Assembly: GCA_964551725.1 (NCBI GenBank)
Contig: CAZKED010000005.1
Span: 1-57,940, forward strand
From: an uncultured archaeon
Lineage (GTDB): Archaea > Iainarchaeota > Iainarchaeia > Iainarchaeales > DTGL01
Reading direction: 5' to 3'
Length of the DNA stretch: 57,940 nucleotides
The number at the start of each line of letters is the position of its first letter. Positions within the stretch are counted from its first letter, which is position 1. Both the position numbers and the translations under genes were made by a program. Below the pieces are notes generated by a model that had not been told where the DNA came from, ran no database searches, and worked only from the letters and a program-made list of their open reading frames with translations. This document shows, one piece after another, positions 10,193 to 18,200 of this stretch.

Positions 10193-10323
10193 TGAGCCCG
10201 GCGGGATTCGAACCCGCGACACCCAGGTCTCACCCGGCTTAAGCCCTAAGAGCGTCACCCCAAAATTCCCACAACGAACATAAGAAAATTGGTCTGGTGC
10301 TCTGCCGACTGAGCTACGGGCCC
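10193..10323 (-). tRNA. tRNA-Lys(CTT) with two introns: 40 nt at 30/31 (10254-10293) and 18 nt at 37/38 (10229-10246)
   Basis: Removing both gives a 73-nt cloverleaf with anticodon arm CCAGG-CTCTTAA-CCTGG. Intron 1 forms a strict BHB (CACC/GGTG central helix, AG|A and AC|G bulges). Intron 2 forms a relaxed BHB. Confidence 0.88.
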
Positions 10324-15181: not shown

Positions 15182-15231
15182 TTAAATGGTATTATTTATT
15201 TATAATAGGTTAAATGGTATTATTTATTTAT
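15182..15231 (+). repeat. 22-bp tandem direct repeat
   Basis: TTAAATGGTATTATTTATTTAT at 15182-15203 and 15210-15231, separated by AATAGG. Confidence 0.85.
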
Positions 15232-15916
15232 GCCCAACCTTTCAAGGTTCAACCCGTTTAGATACTTTCATCCTCGGCGAAAGAAAAAAGGGATTTCCGC
15301 AGTGGACTTGGGGTCCGAGGATACTTTTGGTGAGATAAGGAGATTTTCCGAAAAACCAGGGAGGGCGCTTGAAGGAGTCAGCCTTTCTTTTGCGGGTGTT
15401 CCAGAGAGAAGTTTAAAGGAGAGAGAAAGGAAAGGCGCTTTGAACTCTGAGAGTAGCATAGCTCTTGTGCCTGCGAGAATCGAGAAAAGAGTTGAGGAAT
15501 ATCCCGCCAACACCATGCCGCATTTCAGAATGAGTTATGTTCTTTCGAGGCTTCCCGCAGAGAGCGTGACGGAATTGTTTGGCTCAAAAAGGGCATTTGC
15601 AAAGATTGCAAGAGAAGTCTACAGAGCGCTTGTGCCTGGAGGCAGGTTCAGAATTGTGGATTTCAGGGATTCCATTGAGAGAACTGTTAGAACCTTGGAG
15701 GAAGCAGGCTTTGAGGTTCGCAGGTGGCCCGCCGATGAATCGGTCTATAAAGATGGAAGACTTCCAACTTATTGGCAGCAGTATTATGCTGACGAGGCAA
15801 AAAAGGAAGTTGAAGAAGAGAATAAGAGGCGAGCCGCGCGCGGGGAAAGTAAAATGATGAAAAAGGAAGAATCAGAAAAATGGCCATGGGTTCTTGTGGC
15901 TGTTAAAAGGAAGTGA
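15230..15916 (+). CDS. Divergent class I SAM-dependent methyltransferase-like protein
   Basis: AVDLGS (motif I-like) and EVYRALVPGGRFRIVD; basic N-terminal extension. Confidence 0.6.
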   Translation: MPNLSRFNPFRYFHPRRKKKGISAVDLGSEDTFGEIRRFSEKPGRALEGVSLSFAGVPERSLKERERKGALNSESSIALVPARIEKRVEEYPANTMPHFRMSYVLSRLPAESVTELFGSKRAFAKIAREVYRALVPGGRFRIVDFRDSIERTVRTLEEAGFEVRRWPADESVYKDGRLPTYWQQYYADEAKKEVEEENKRRAARGESKMMKKEESEKWPWVLVAVKRK

Positions 15917-15967
15917 AAATTGTTCCTCGGTCCGCCCATCAATCCTCATTCTTTCGTCGGATTCATC

Positions 15968-16012
15968 GTCAGCTCTTCATCGGAACAATATCTAATTAAT
16001 ATAAAAGTGTTT
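15968..16012 (+). repeat. Cassette-boundary repeat, copy 1 (truncated/hybrid)
   Basis: GTCAGCTCTTCATCGGAACAATA identical to copies 2 and 3, followed by TCTAATTAATATAAAAGTGTT. Confidence 0.9.
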
Positions 16013-16029
16013 AAAAAAGGGATTTTTTT

Positions 16030-16374
16030 CTATTTTTTCCTGTATTTGAATTTTCTGTCGTATTTTTTGTGGTCCATCCATTCGAGAACAATGCTCACTA
16101 CGATGAGTTTTTGTTTTCCTACGGAATAGATTAGTCTCCATGCGTTTGGAAGGTTGTATTTCCACAGGTTGTCTATTCCGTATTTTTTCCTGTATTCTTT
16201 CGGAATGAGTTTCTTTGAAATTCTTATTCCGCAGAACGCGTTTTCCTCAATGTCCGAAAACGCCCTGGCTAGAAAGTCGTAAAGCTGCTTGTCTTCTGTT
16301 TTGCCTTCCAGTAATTTTGCGAATGCCCTCTTTACTTTGTCATCGGCAAAAATAACATGCGAGGGGAGTTTCAT
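16030..16374 (-). CDS. RelE-like toxin
   Basis: LWKYNLPNAWRLIYSV...VLEWMDHKKY RelE-fold pattern; ATG 16374 overlaps the upstream stop (ATGA). Confidence 0.75.
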   Translation of the reverse strand: MKLPSHVIFADDKVKRAFAKLLEGKTEDKQLYDFLARAFSDIEENAFCGIRISKKLIPKEYRKKYGIDNLWKYNLPNAWRLIYSVGKQKLIVVSIVLEWMDHKKYDRKFKYRKK

Positions 16375-16670
16375 TTCTTTGCCCTCCAGCGCAAATCCGG
16401 TCTTTTCGTGTAATGTTCGACCAGTTTCGGGTTCCAAATCCAGATTATTGCGCCGTCCTTGTCAATTAGAATCTTGCCTGAGTATTCCAGGTAGTCGAGG
16501 ATGAGGTTGAACGTCTGGTACATTGTTTTTTTTGGCAGGCTGCGCCATAATTCCGCTTTTGTCGGGTATTCCTCCGCTTTCTGTATTGCCTCTTCAACCA
16601 TTAAGACAGTGTCAAGCCTCGGATAGCGGAGAATGTTTTTGGGAGCGAAAACCGTTTTGGTTCCAGCCAT
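16371..16670 (-). CDS. Winged-HTH protein, putative antitoxin
   Basis: YPRLDTVLMVE...LWRSLPKKTMYQTFNLILDYLEYSGKI; translationally coupled to the toxin. Confidence 0.7.
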   Translation of the reverse strand: MAGTKTVFAPKNILRYPRLDTVLMVEEAIQKAEEYPTKAELWRSLPKKTMYQTFNLILDYLEYSGKILIDKDGAIIWIWNPKLVEHYTKRPDLRWRAKK

Positions 16671-16680
16671 TTAATCACTG

Positions 16681-16710
16681 TATCAATTGATATAATAAGT
16701 TATTTTAAAC
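16681..16710 (-). promoter_or_regulatory. TA1 promoter with palindromic operator
   Basis: Perfect palindrome TATCAATTGATA (16681-16692) between the TTTAAAAT box (~16702-16709, minus strand) and the ATG. Confidence 0.6.
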
Positions 16711-16729
16711 CTTTCTGCCCGGCGGACAA

Positions 16730-16805
16730 TTTTATATTAATTAGAGTGGATGCAATTAATTGTCAGCTCTTCATCGGAACAATAAATAATGTGCATAAAA
16801 GTGTT
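16730..16805 (+). repeat. Cassette-boundary repeat, copy 2 (76 bp)
   Basis: TTTTATATTAATTAGAGTGG-atgcaa-TTAATTGTCAGCTCTTCATCGGAACAATAAATAATGTGCATAAAAGTGTT. Confidence 0.95.
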
Positions 16806-16854
16806 TTTAAGGGGTTTTGGTTTCGTGCCGGCGCGATTTCTTTTGTTTCAGCGT

Positions 16855-17265
16855 CTAGAGCATTCCGATTTCTTCTTTCATTTCCTTTGTTGTTTTTGTT
16901 TCCACTCTTGCCTGTTTCTTGAATTCCTTGTCGTCGCTCCAGATTATTGTGTTTTCTTTGAGGGCGCATGCGAGGTAGAGCCAGTCTTTCGGGTCCTTGG
17001 AAAGGGATGCGGCTGCCGGCAGGTAGGGCTTTAATTCCCCGTCCTCAACAAAAACAACCTGTTCCAAGAGTTTTTCGCAGAGCGATTGGAATTCAGCAGT
17101 GTTTCCATGGTATTTGTTCTCTAGGTATGAAGCGTATTTCTGGAACTCTTTGAGCAAAAATCGCGGAGCGAAAAGCCTTATCTCCGGAACAAACCAGATT
17201 CTCCGTGTAAGGCTTTTCTTCAATAATGCGGAGAAAAGGATATTGGCATCAACTGTTGCCTTCAT
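16855..17265 (-). CDS. PIN-domain (VapC-like) toxin
   Basis: VDANILFS, LLKE, DPKDW, IWSDDKEF acidic PIN residues. Confidence 0.9.
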   Translation of the reverse strand: MKATVDANILFSALLKKSLTRRIWFVPEIRLFAPRFLLKEFQKYASYLENKYHGNTAEFQSLCEKLLEQVVFVEDGELKPYLPAAASLSKDPKDWLYLACALKENTIIWSDDKEFKKQARVETKTTKEMKEEIGML

Positions 17266-17491
17266 CCAAAAGCCTCTTGGCGTGTTTTGCCATTGACTTG
17301 TCCGCTTTTGTTGAAAGCAGTTCAATGTCCTTTTCTGTCAGTGTGCTTTTTTTCGCCAGTTTTTCGGCTGTTTCAAAGTCGTGCAGTTTCTTTTCGATCA
17401 TTGTGCGGATTGCGTTAGACCATCGAACCTCCGGATGCTGCTTCATTTTCTGCTTTGTCACGTCGCTTACGGAAAGGGTAATATTGGGCAT
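17249..17491 (-). CDS. Ribbon-helix-helix antitoxin
   Basis: MPNITLSV...KMKQHPEVRWSNAIRTMIEKKL; overlaps the PIN start by 17 nt. Confidence 0.8.
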   Translation of the reverse strand: MPNITLSVSDVTKQKMKQHPEVRWSNAIRTMIEKKLHDFETAEKLAKKSTLTEKDIELLSTKADKSMAKHAKRLLDEGNS

Positions 17492-17498
17492 AACAAAT

Positions 17499-17532
17499 CA
17501 CATAATTATTATGTGCCAATACTTATTTTAAA
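17499..17532 (-). promoter_or_regulatory. TA2 promoter with inverted-repeat operator
   Basis: CACATAA-TTA-TTATGTG (17499-17515) downstream of a TTTAAAAT box. Confidence 0.6.
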
Positions 17533-17556
17533 TGTATTGTTTGGGCATTACTGGGG

Positions 17557-17632
17557 TTTTATATTAATTAGAGTGGTTCGCTTTAATTGTCAGCTCTTCA
17601 TCGGAACAATAAATAATGTGCATAAAAGTGTT
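17557..17632 (+). repeat. Cassette-boundary repeat, copy 3 (76 bp)
   Basis: Identical to copy 2 apart from the 6-bp segment (ttcgct vs atgcaa). Confidence 0.95.
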
Positions 17633-17704
17633 CTCTCTTGTCATCCTTAAAAAAGAAATCTTTTTAACGATTAAAATTTAATATAAGTGAGAGAGGTGAT
17701 AAAT

Positions 17705-18159: not shown

Positions 18160-18200
18160 GCATTGCGTGCTGGCTGCGTCTCTTCAGCACGCCGCAATGC
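18160..18200. other. GC-rich stem-loop between the island and pyrB
   Basis: GCATTGCG/CGCAATGC plus TGCTG/CAGCA with a 3-nt bulge. Confidence 0.5.

What the first reader, a model, noticed from the sequence alone, without database searches (positions are those of the whole stretch)
15968..17632. Two toxin-antitoxin operons packaged as cassettes between copies of a 76-bp direct repeat
Seen: a 23-bp core GTCAGCTCTTCATCGGAACAATA recurs at 15968, 16762 and 17589 (periods 794 and 827 bp). Copies 2 and 3 match over a 20-bp left arm and a 50-bp right arm and differ only in a 6-bp segment between them (ATGCAA vs TTCGCT). Each interval holds exactly one complete, self-promoted but unrelated TA operon (wHTH+RelE-like; RHH+PIN), both on the minus strand. 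Established: gene cassettes bounded by recombination sites, often carrying TA pairs, are the layout of integron attC arrays and Acinetobacter pdif modules, and tyrosine recombinases exchange strands across a 6-8 bp spacer. Inference: this is a site-specific cassette array whose site matches neither canonical attC nor dif by eye and whose recombinase lies elsewhere. This is the best candidate for an undescribed system in the window.
Basis: partly seen in the sequence, partly recalled or inferred. Interest (0 to 1): 0.8.

Follow-up and report, generated by a model that had tools for sequence, protein, structure and literature searches.

The report
Gene cassettes stacked on a small-RNA gene
The repeat is the front end of a small ribosome-modifying guide RNA gene, copied at each junction where a small toxin-antitoxin module was inserted, so this archaeon stacks mobile cassettes on a C/D box RNA gene much as other microbes stack them on tRNA genes or in integrons.

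Summary
The 23-bp core occurs three times (0 expected by chance). Copies 2 and 3 share 76 bp apart from one 6-mer. Each interval holds one TA operon.

What it is:
- On the minus strand, copy 1 plus the 49 nt to its left (15919-15989) is a complete C/D box sRNA gene. Both of its guides are complementary to Iainarchaeota 16S rRNA.
- The core is that gene's 5' stem, C box and the first 6 nt of the D' guide. Copies 2 and 3 are truncated 5' copies that keep the gene's TATA-like upstream region.

Evidence for cassettes:
- Distant relatives have gatD directly next to pyrB.
- The closest relative has only the PIN/RHH cassette, bounded by the same sites, and its sRNA is visibly chimeric.
- Other contigs place the same cassette among different neighbours.

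Most likely mechanism: Campbell-type site-specific insertion into the sRNA gene's 5' end, in which each cassette supplies a replacement promoter and 5' end.

It is not a canonical integron and not dif-like. The recombinase is unidentified. A zinc-ribbon tyrosine integrase family sits at the same gene's 3' end in relatives, but it is absent from the window. I rate this a new variant of a known kind. I found no description of a C/D sRNA gene used as an attachment site.

The parts
15919..15989 (-). Complete C/D box sRNA gene. In the sense direction: 5' stem AUUGUUCC (15982-15989), C box GAUGAAGA (15974-15981), D' guide GCUGACGAUGAAU (15961-15973), D' box CCGA (15957-15960), loop (15950-15956), C' box AUGAGGA (15943-15949), D guide UUGAUGGGCGGA (15931-15942), D box CCGA (15927-15930), 3' stem GGAACAAU (15919-15926).
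   Evidence: Box layout read. Orthologous copies hit archaeal C/D families over the full model length; the window copy is weaker at 14.7 bits. The terminal stem covaries. Both guides are complementary to the L011 16S rRNA.
15968..15990 (+). Repeat copy 1 (core). It is part of the intact sRNA gene: the reverse complement of the 5' stem, the C box and the first 6 nt of the D' guide.
15991..16029 (+). Y1 arm. It includes an inverted copy of the X arm (15991-16010) and a T/A-rich TATA-like box (about 16010-16018) placed to drive the sRNA on the minus strand.
   Evidence: (I3), and the conserved spacing of the T5-7AA box in 10 of 11 sites read
16030..16374 (-). TA1 toxin, 114 aa, RelE/ParE/YoeB-like.
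   Evidence: homologue names and Pfam on homologues; ParE_toxin E=0.033
16371..16670 (-). TA1 putative antitoxin, 99 aa, no family match. It overlaps the toxin start by 4 nt. The palindrome GTATCAATTGATAT and a TATA-like box lie upstream (16671-16715).
16730..16816 (+). Site 2: X arm 16730-16749, variable 6-mer 16750-16755, TTAATT 16756-16761, truncated sRNA 5' copy (core) 16762-16784, Y arm with TATA-like box 16785-16816.
16855..17265 (-). TA2 toxin, 136 aa, PIN_2 domain.
   Evidence: (E=2.8e-25)
17249..17491 (-). TA2 antitoxin, 80 aa, RHH_12 / VapB-like. The palindrome CACATAATAATTATGTG lies upstream.
   Evidence: (PF26688)
17557..17665 (+). Site 3: X arm 17557-17576, variable 6-mer 17577-17582, TTAATT 17583-17588, truncated sRNA 5' copy (core) 17589-17611, Y arm 17612-17632. 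A 14-bp insertion follows, then the T/A box TTAAAAAAGAAATCTTTTT (17647-17665), which resembles the one beside copy 1.
   Evidence: (D7)

Best explanation
The repeat is the promoter-proximal 5' end of a housekeeping C/D box sRNA gene. That sRNA is a guide RNA for 2'-O-methylation of 16S rRNA. The 5' end was duplicated each time a small circular cassette inserted into the gene by conservative site-specific recombination.

The intact gene lies on the minus strand at 15919-15989. Each cassette carries an attP-like site made of:
- the X arm, a 6-bp spacer and TTAATT;
- a copy of the sRNA's first ~17-23 nt;
- the sRNA's TATA-like upstream region.

Strand exchange occurs within GTCAGYTC, which lies inside the D' guide. 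It fuses the cassette-borne promoter, 5' stem and C box to the resident remainder of the sRNA, so the gene stays whole. The previous 5' end is pushed outward as a truncated copy. Repetition gives the array sRNA | TA1 | TA2 | displaced ancestral 5' end. TA1, next to the intact gene, is the newest insertion.

Shown: the sRNA identity, the truncated copies, the cassette modularity across relatives, and the chimeric sRNA in the closest relative.

Inferred: circular intermediates and a trans-acting recombinase, probably of the tyrosine type, encoded elsewhere.
For: 1. sRNA identity.
- Orthologous copies hit archaeal C/D families (sR2, sR18, snoPyro_CD and others) over the full model length, at exactly the predicted coordinates and strand, in four independent loci (E 0.007-0.05).
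- The terminal stem covaries: 5 of 8 pairs change on both sides, covariation score 0.435 against 0.14 for shuffles (0/500), and at most 0.18 for slid controls.
- The D' guide GCUGACGAUGA is the exact complement of UCAUCGUCAGC in the 16S rRNA of the Iainarchaeota locus L011. The D guide UUGAUGGGCGG pairs with CUGCCCAUCAA in the same 16S, including a lineage-specific A.

2. The insertions are real.
- L007 and L014 have gatD about 125 bp from pyrB.
- The closest relative (L005/L085) has sRNA | PIN-RHH | X+core and lacks TA1 and orf228.

3. Chimeric sRNA in L005.
- The in-gene 5' strand CUAUACUCC pairs with only 3 bp of the 3' strand GGAACAAU. The displaced copy keeps UAUUGUUCC, a perfect 8-bp partner.
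- The in-gene 5' end and its flank match the PIN-side arm of the same cassette in L090 and L091. This places the exchange left of core position 9.

4. Modularity.
- L090 carries TA1-like | RHH+RelE-like | PIN-RHH | 118-aa gene, separated by three sites.
- L094, L095 and L096 join one site and flank to two different upstream cassettes.
- Nucleotide homology of the PIN/RHH unit (about 83%) stops at the sites.

5. Ten of 11 sites keep a T5-7AA box 18-21 nt beyond the stem. This matches the native upstream region in array-free genomes.

6. Precedent. Archaeal pTN3-type integrases target the 5' half of tRNA genes, and the recombinant gene is then expressed from an element promoter (PMC8371274).

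7. The same sRNA gene is demonstrably an att target at its other end. In L102, an 8.5-kb island starting with a tyrosine integrase is bracketed by a 19-bp direct repeat of the sRNA 3' end.
Against: - No recombinase for the 5' site was found. There is none in the window. The linked integrase family uses the 3' end in the one case that could be resolved. Only one locus (L096) has both the integrase and a 5' array.
- No circular or empty-site junctions could be examined, because all four contigs of this strain are identical.
- The exact core was absent from the viral, genome and metagenome scans. A degenerate pattern found only three further contigs, so the sample of arrays is small and comes from one narrow clade.
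- Window sites 2 and 3 are identical over 50 bp on a side where the model predicts different histories. This needs added homogenisation.
- The 6-bp variable segment is unexplained.
- The window sRNA has non-consensus D and D' boxes (CCGA) and scores poorly in Rfam.
Confidence: 0.6

Rival explanations
1. Shuffling by homologous recombination only. The repeated 60-100-bp blocks (sRNA promoter + 5' end + X arm) act as portable homology. Cassettes are gained, lost and reordered by general recombination or gene conversion after DNA uptake, with no dedicated site-specific recombinase.
For: Window sites 2 and 3 are 100% identical over 20 + 50 bp, as expected from gene conversion. No recombinase was found. 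Homology between sites extends well beyond a typical core.
Against: All internal sites share a sharp, constant left boundary of sRNA-derived sequence (TTAATT|GTCAG) across four genomes. In L005 the exchange maps to the first 8 bp, although the two copies differ immediately to the right. This model does not explain how unrelated cargo first acquired the same X arm and truncated sRNA copy.
Confidence: 0.15
2. A graveyard of larger integrated elements. Successive integrase-bearing plasmids or viruses integrated at the sRNA 5' end and were then deleted down to their addictive TA modules.
For: TA modules resist loss and are common on archaeal mobile elements. Most, though not all, cargo is TA. An integrase island sits at the same gene in relatives.
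Against: Deletion remnants should have ragged inner ends. Here unrelated cassettes share conserved X and Y arms on both sides, and the same PIN/RHH unit keeps the same two boundaries in four contexts. No integrase fragments were seen in the arrays.
Confidence: 0.12
3. Xer/dif-type modules, like Acinetobacter pdif modules or IMEX elements, moved by the chromosomal XerA recombinase.
For: TA-carrying modules between short sites resemble pdif modules. The nearest named family of the linked integrase is archaeal XerA.
Against: The sites contain no 11-6-11 imperfect palindrome. The sites are direct repeats, not alternately inverted ones. The shared segment is an sRNA gene fragment. The linked integrase scores 101 bits against the XerA cutoff of 220 and carries an extra ~100-aa zinc-ribbon tail.
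Confidence: 0.05
4. A canonical integron cassette array (CALIN) with attC sites served by an IntI integrase.
For: The array consists of short, co-oriented cassettes rich in TA modules. Integrons are reported in archaeal MAGs, including DPANN lineages (PMC9668308).
Against: There are no R''/R' boxes. The sites do not fold better than shuffles as single-stranded DNA (z -0.54 to +0.81). The conserved part is central and not palindromic. The only linked integrase scores 43 bits against the integron-integrase cutoff of 265.
Confidence: 0.03
5. A non-mobile regulatory repeat: a shared promoter/terminator or K-turn (L7Ae-binding) element duplicated along with the TA operons.
For: The repeat contains TATA-like boxes, T-runs and a C box followed by CUGA.
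Against: The two TA operons are unrelated, so a duplication cannot explain the repeat. Relatives show gain, loss and reordering at the sites. More distant homologues of the same TA pairs lack the repeat (L088, L108).
Confidence: 0.04

Closest known systems
Integrative elements that use RNA genes as attachment sites, especially pTN3-type archaeal integrases, which target the 5' half of a tRNA gene (PMC8371274)
   Same: The direct repeats are a segment of a small structured-RNA gene. A complete gene sits at one end and truncated copies at the other junctions. The inserted DNA brings a replacement 5' end and promoter, so the gene stays functional. Tandem accretion occurs at one hotspot.
   Different: The target is a C/D box sRNA gene, not a tRNA gene. 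The inserted units are ~0.8-kb cassettes without an integrase. All units share a conserved non-target arm (X arm).
Integrons: sedentary chromosomal integrons, CALINs, and the archaeal integrons of Ghaly et al. 2022 (PMC9668308)
   Same: An array of small, mostly co-oriented, promoter-bearing TA and other cassettes separated by lineage-homogeneous sites. The newest cassette lies next to the primary site. Arrays occur without an adjacent integrase.
   Different: The sites are not attC: no R/L boxes and no hairpin. The primary site is a functional RNA gene, not attI. No IntI-type integrase is present.
Tycheposons and their cargo-only satellites in Prochlorococcus (bioRxiv 10.1101/2020.12.28.424599; the comparison is from my own knowledge of that work)
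   Same: Tyrosine-recombinase elements and integrase-less cargo modules accumulate in tandem at RNA-gene att sites and form variable islands.
   Different: The target there is a tRNA/tmRNA gene in bacteria and the elements are larger. Here the host is a DPANN archaeon, the target is an sRNA gene and the cargo is dominated by TA modules.
Acinetobacter pdif modules / Xer-dependent IMEX elements
   Same: Small modules, often TA pairs, bounded by short recombination sites and moved by a recombinase encoded elsewhere.
   Different: No dif-like palindrome is present. The sites are in direct orientation, not alternating, and are derived from an RNA gene.
Archaeal C/D box sRNAs (Rfam sR2, sR18, snoPyro_CD)
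   Same: The same box order, 12-13-nt guide spacing, terminal stem and rRNA complementarity.
   Different: All hits are below the family gathering scores. The window copy has CCGA in place of CUGA at both D boxes.

Membership tests
Integron (IntI + attI + attC cassettes) | An integron integrase carrying the IntI-specific additional domain | tested here: not met
   No tyrosine recombinase is present in the window (tblastn). The integrase family linked to the same locus in relatives scores 43 bits on TIGR02249 (cutoff 265) and 22 bits on NF011946 (cutoff 435).
Integron (IntI + attI + attC cassettes) | attC sites: R''/L''...L'/R' inverted boxes (RYYYAAC / GTTRRRY) that fold into a hairpin as single-stranded DNA | tested here: not met
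   No such boxes are seen on reading the sites. Sites 2 and 3 fold no better than shuffles on either strand (z -0.54, -0.30, -0.36, +0.81). Only the reconstituted TA1 junction forms a hairpin (z -5.8), and that is not general. IntegronFinder/HattCI could not be run.
Integron (IntI + attI + attC cassettes) | A tandem array of short, mostly co-oriented cassettes, each bounded by a recombination site | tested here: met
   The window has 2 cassettes and 3 sites. L090 has at least 4 cassettes and 3 sites, all co-oriented.
RNA-gene-targeting integrative elements (tRNA-type att) | The direct repeats equal a segment of an RNA gene, with a complete gene at one junction and truncated copies at the others | tested here: met
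   Complete sRNA at 15919-15989(-); truncated 5' copies at 16762-16784 and 17589-17611. The same layout occurs in L005 and L096.
RNA-gene-targeting integrative elements (tRNA-type att) | The target gene is reconstituted from element-borne sequence (a chimeric gene) | tested here: met
   In L005 the in-gene 5' strand mismatches the resident 3' strand, whereas the displaced copy matches it perfectly. The in-gene 5' end is cassette-linked in L090 and L091.
RNA-gene-targeting integrative elements (tRNA-type att) | The element encodes its own integrase | tested here: not met
   The cassettes hold only TA or small genes. Integrase-bearing islands exist only at the sRNA 3' end in relatives.
Xer/dif modules (pdif, IMEX) | A ~28-bp site with two ~11-bp inverted arms around a 6-8-bp spacer, with modules flanked by oppositely oriented sites | tested here: not met
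   No such palindrome is present in the sites, and all sites are in direct orientation.
Archaeal C/D box sRNA | Boxes in the order C, D', C', D with 12-13-nt guides, and a terminal stem kept by covariation | tested here: met
   Box layout in 7 orthologues. Stem covariation 0.435 against 0.14 for shuffles, 0/500.
Archaeal C/D box sRNA | Guide complementarity of at least 10 nt to rRNA, adjacent to the D and D' boxes | tested here: met
   Each guide pairs over 11 bp with the 16S rRNA of L011/L040. The window organism's own 16S was not available.
Archaeal C/D box sRNA | Reaches an Rfam family gathering score | tested here: not met
   Best score is 29.5 bits against 42 (sR2) in relatives and 14.7 bits in the window. 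These families are lineage-specific, so this test is weak.
Type II toxin-antitoxin | Two small overlapping genes, one from a known toxin family | tested here: met
   TA2: PIN_2 E=2.8e-25 plus RHH_12/VapB-like. TA1: RelE/ParE/YoeB-like by homologue annotation, with only a weak direct hit. Activity was not tested.

The most novel reading that the evidence does not exclude
DPANN (Iainarchaeota) archaea carry a previously undescribed, integron-like cassette system whose primary attachment site is the 5' end of an rRNA-methylation guide (C/D box sRNA) gene. Integrase-less mini-cassettes of ~0.8 kb, mostly toxin-antitoxin pairs, each carry a replacement promoter and 5' sRNA segment. A trans-acting recombinase stacks, shuffles and exchanges them. 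That recombinase may be the zinc-ribbon tyrosine integrase family that also integrates islands at the 3' end of the same 60-70-nt gene.
Probability: 0.45. Interest if true: 0.8.

Novelty: new variant of a known kind. Interest (0 to 1): 0.7.

Why it matters
- **New class of attachment site.** It would add C/D box sRNA genes to the short list of attachment sites for site-specific integration. Until now that list has been essentially tRNA/tmRNA genes and a few protein genes. Here both ends of one ~70-nt gene appear to be used.
- **Gene exchange in DPANN archaea.** It would give DPANN archaea a concrete mechanism for exchanging small gene modules. These organisms have tiny genomes, and little is known about how they acquire genes.
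- **Testable predictions.** The 16S methylation targets and the recombination substrates can be tested directly with existing metagenomic reads and simple in vitro assays.
- **Annotation warning.** Truncated C/D box fragments in archaeal genomes can be scars of insertion.

Tried and rejected
- **Exact scans for the core.** The 23-mer in viral contigs and in GTDB genome contigs, and a 20-mer in metagenome contigs, found nothing. A degenerate site pattern found three contigs from one metagenome and nothing in viral contigs.
- **tRNA-fragment origin of the core.** ARAGORN and Rfam find no tRNA there.
- **attC-like hairpin.** Rejected for sites 2 and 3.
- **X arm as a decayed copy of the rest of the sRNA.** The MAFFT alignment suggested this, but semi-global alignment against shuffles gives p = 0.3-0.8. 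Rejected.
- **sRNA ancestral to the gatD-pyrB spacer.** It is absent from L007 and L014.
- **Integrase in the window.** None found.
- **Integrase family in viral contigs.** None found.
- **More distant homologues of both TA pairs.** L088 (tox1, 82% identity) and L108 (PIN, 69% identity) sit between housekeeping genes without sites. The arrays are therefore confined to a narrow clade.
- **MITE/transposon reading of the TA1 inverted repeat.** Rejected, because there is no target-site duplication and the other cassettes lack the inverted repeat.
- **Population variation in this strain.** None: all four contigs are identical.
- **Literature.** No paper contained both 'c d box srna' and 'integrase'. 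The review of archaeal tyrosine recombinases does not mention sRNA targets.
Full report
**Observation**

The 23-bp core GTCAGCTCTTCATCGGAACAATA occurs exactly three times on the + strand, at 15968, 16762 and 17589. There are no further matches at up to 3 mismatches, and none are expected by chance. Copies 2 and 3 are identical over 76 bp (16730-16805 and 17557-17632), apart from ATGCAA versus TTCGCT.

Each interval holds one two-gene operon on the minus strand.
- TA1 is a 99-aa protein followed by a 114-aa toxin. The toxin has more than 1300 homologues, mostly from DPANN archaea. Some are annotated RelE/ParE or YoeB. Its own Pfam hit is marginal.
- TA2 is an RHH_12/VapB-like protein followed by a PIN_2 protein.

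Four contigs from different samples are 100% identical to the window. Three of them span all three copies, so the layout is not an assembly artefact. The window is archaeal: it carries gatD, a diphthamide synthase, an ATP-dependent DNA ligase and an intron-containing tRNA. Its nearest genome records are Candidatus Iainarchaeum MAGs.

**Comparative anatomy of the interval**

In two more distant Iainarchaeota loci (L007, L014), gatD lies about 125 bp from pyrB. Everything between gatD and pyrB in the window (orf228, TA1, TA2, a SnoaL-like gene) is therefore added material.

The closest relative is L005, with longer versions of the same locus in L085 and L086. Its GatD is 71% identical to the window's. 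Its interval has a different content: only the PIN/RHH operon is shared (85% aa identity), followed by three unrelated genes before pyrB. There the PIN/RHH unit is flanked:
- on the RHH side by TTAATT + GTCAGTTCTTCATTGGAACAATA, which is the core with 2 mismatches;
- on the PIN side by a more diverged core, joined to the same ~50-nt left flank that precedes window copy 1 (88% identical over 78 bp).

TA1 and orf228 are absent from this relative.

A 2.1-kb contig (L090) carries the same PIN/RHH unit (86% aa identity) between two sites, plus a third site. Its order is TA1-like | RHH + RelE-like pair | PIN/RHH | 118-aa gene, all co-oriented. In L091 the same unit has an IS-like transposase ORF interrupting the X arm.

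A degenerate scan of metagenome contigs found three contigs from one sample. In them, one site plus its right flank is joined to two different upstream cassettes. Nucleotide homology of the PIN/RHH unit to the window (about 83%) starts at the PIN stop codon and ends in the core of site 3.

The units therefore behave as cassettes whose boundaries are the repeats.

**What the core is**

I read the region on the minus strand. Window copy 1 plus the 49 nt to its left has the layout of an archaeal C/D box sRNA:

| Element | Sequence (sense) |
|---|---|
| 5' stem | AUUGUUCC |
| C box | GAUGAAGA |
| D' guide (13 nt) | GCUGACGAUGAAU |
| D' box | CCGA |
| loop | 7 nt |
| C' box | AUGAGGA |
| D guide (12 nt) | UUGAUGGGCGGA |
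| D box | CCGA |
| 3' stem | GGAACAAU |

Orthologous copies carry consensus boxes (GAUGAUGA, CUGA, AUGAUGA, CUGA). They were found in L005, L096/L107, L097-99, L100, L102 and L103-106.

Three lines of evidence support the identification.
- **Rfam.** A permissive Rfam search hits several archaeal C/D families (sR2, sR18, sR1, snoPyro_CD and others) over their full length, at exactly these coordinates and strand, in four independent loci. E-values are 0.007-0.05 and scores are below gathering. The window copy scores only 14.7 bits.
- **Covariation.** The terminal stem is kept by covariation: window AUUGUUCC/GGAACAAU, L096 UGCUCC/GGGGCA, L102 UGGCC/GGCCA, L100 GGC/GCC. Five of 8 pairs change on both sides. 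The covariation score is 0.435 against 0.14 for shuffles (0 of 500 reach it) and at most 0.18 for slid partners.
- **Guide complementarity.** Both guides are complementary to the 16S rRNA of an Iainarchaeota MAG (L011; Rfam places its 16S at 7-1494). The D' guide GCUGACGAUGA is the exact complement of UCAUCGUCAGC. The D guide UUGAUGGGCGG pairs with CUGCCCAUCAA over 11 bp with one G.U pair. This includes an A where, from my own knowledge, the near-universal sequence CCGCCCGUCA has a G.

By the N+5 rule (my inference), the D guide would direct 2'-O-methylation of the cytidine equivalent to E. coli C1402.

The 23-bp core is thus the reverse complement of the sRNA's 5' stem, its C box and the first 6 nt of its D' guide. 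Sites 2 and 3 are truncated 5' copies. Their sRNA-derived sequence ends sharply at GTCAG, where TTAATT replaces the rest of the guide in every internal site of every genome examined.

To the right of the core, 10 of 11 sites keep a T5-7AA box 18-21 nt beyond the stem. Array-free genomes have the same box upstream of their sRNA. On the sense strand this is a TATA-like box at a distance from the sRNA start that I judge typical of archaeal promoters.

**Evidence for insertion by exchange within the core**

In L005, the 5' strand now in the gene (CUAUACUCC) pairs with only 3 bp of the resident 3' strand (GGAACAAU). The displaced copy on the far side of the cassette retains UAUUGUUCC, a perfect 8-bp partner. 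That displaced copy is also the version present in the window.

The in-gene 5' end and its flank (GGAGTATAG AATAATTCGTGGGAAGTTATTTTAATG) are homologous to the PIN-side arm of the same cassette in L090 and L091. The L005 sRNA is therefore a chimera of a resident 3' part and a cassette-borne 5' part.

The two L005 copies already differ at core positions 9 and 14. The exchange must therefore lie in the first 8 bp, GTCAGYTC. This is the outcome expected of Campbell-type integration of a circle whose site reads X arm - 6 bp - TTAATT - core - promoter region. It is the sRNA analogue of integration into the 5' half of tRNA genes by pTN3-type archaeal integrases, where the recombinant gene is expressed from an element promoter (PMC8371274).

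On this model, TA1, next to the intact gene and absent from L005, is the most recent arrival in the window. Site 3 holds the displaced ancestral 5' end.

**Recombinase**

None is encoded in the window.

In L096 a tyrosine recombinase gene starts about 55 bp beyond the 3' end of the sRNA. The sRNA's 5' side carries a cassette array, which gives an integron-like picture. The full-length protein (P0241) is 409 aa, with Phage_int_SAM_4 and Phage_integrase domains and a C-terminal CxxC...CxxC tail.
- Its best NCBIfam model is archaeal XerA, at 101 bits against a cutoff of 220.
- The integron-integrase model gives 43 bits against a cutoff of 265.
- Its best solved relatives are XerA structures.

Homologues of 58-74% identity were found. 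For six of them the genomic context was fetched, and in all six the gene lies just downstream of the same sRNA. In L102, a 19-bp direct repeat of the sRNA 3' end (AGATGGGCGAACTGAGGCC) brackets an 8.5-kb island that begins with the integrase and ends just before the sRNA's T-run.

This family therefore integrates islands at the 3' end of the sRNA gene. Whether it also acts on the 5' site is unknown. Most integrase-bearing loci have no 5' array, and the window and L005 arrays have no integrase. The same ~70-nt gene is thus used at both ends.

**Comparison with known systems**

- **Not a canonical integron.** The sites lack R/L boxes and do not fold better than shuffles as single strands (z -0.54 to +0.81). 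The only linked integrase is not an IntI. The archaeal integrons already described were defined by IntI-specific domains and canonical attCs (PMC9668308).
- **Not dif-like.** There is no 11-6-11 palindrome, and the sites are direct repeats.
- **What it works like.** It resembles RNA-gene att duplication with tandem accretion of integrase-less satellites, and in population behaviour it resembles an integron.
- **Literature.** Searches found no paper combining C/D box sRNAs with integrases. The review of archaeal tyrosine recombinases lists tRNA genes as targets and makes no mention of sRNA genes.

**Open points**

- The variable 6-mer has two allele classes (TTCGCT/TTCTGT/TTTGCT and ATGTGT/ATGCAA). 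The classes are not tied to particular cassettes, and the 6-mer lies outside the sRNA-derived segment. It is not the overlap region, and I cannot explain it.
- Window sites 2 and 3 are identical for 50 bp on the side where the same cassette has a different arm in relatives. This suggests local homogenisation.
- The Y1 arm is an inverted copy of the X arm, which makes a hairpin only for the reconstituted TA1 junction (z -5.8).
- The window sRNA has CCGA at both D boxes, together with A and G at position 5 of the C and C' boxes. These changes may be compensatory (my reading, untested), or they may mark decay.
- All arrays found belong to one narrow clade. More distant homologues of both TA pairs lack the sites.

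**Verdict**

The cassette-array reading is supported by comparative evidence. The site is identified as a truncated C/D box sRNA gene. The mechanism (site-specific insertion at the gene's 5' end by a recombinase acting in trans) is inferred. I judge it the most likely explanation, with a confidence of about 0.6.

Noticed in passing
L102:9929-9947 and L102:18410-18428: A 19-bp direct repeat of the sRNA 3' end brackets an 8.5-kb island. The island starts with the zinc-ribbon tyrosine integrase and carries Mrr-type nuclease and ATPase genes. This looks like an integrative element that uses the 3' end of a C/D box sRNA gene as attB.
   Followed up: partly
L011:1362-1375 and L040:1093-1106: The 16S rRNA of these Iainarchaeota MAGs reads CACUGCCCAUCAAG in the decoding-centre stretch that is almost universally CCGCCCGUCA. 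The sRNA D guide matches this lineage-specific version.
   Followed up: partly
window 10193-10323 (-): Rfam calls a 131-nt tRNA here, presumably intron-containing. ARAGORN did not report it.
   Followed up: no
window 18168-18200: A G+C-rich imperfect inverted repeat (gcattgcgtgctg...cagcacgccgcaatgc) lies between the SnoaL-like gene and pyrB. It may be a terminator or another structured element.
   Followed up: no
L091:1-600: A DDE-transposase-like ORF (182 aa, cut by the contig end) replaces the sequence from the middle of the X arm onward, next to the PIN/RHH cassette. This suggests an IS insertion into a site.
   Followed up: no
L004 (contig end at 6196): This Logan contig of the same strain ends one base after core copy 2. 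An assembly break of this kind is expected from a repeat longer than the k-mer, which may explain why the arrays found in relatives sit on short contigs.
   Followed up: no
window 15230-15916 (+): orf228 abuts the sRNA 3' end. It matches no Pfam or NCBIfam family, and no counterpart was found in any of the related gatD loci. Its origin is unknown. L085 carries a 296-aa methyltransferase-like gene elsewhere in its interval.
   Followed up: partly
L094:700-750 (read on the - strand): A degenerate site. The X arm, TTTGCT, TTAATT and only the first 10 nt of the core are fused directly to the 3' end of the RelE-like toxin gene. Relative to L090 this is a 37-bp deletion.
   Followed up: no
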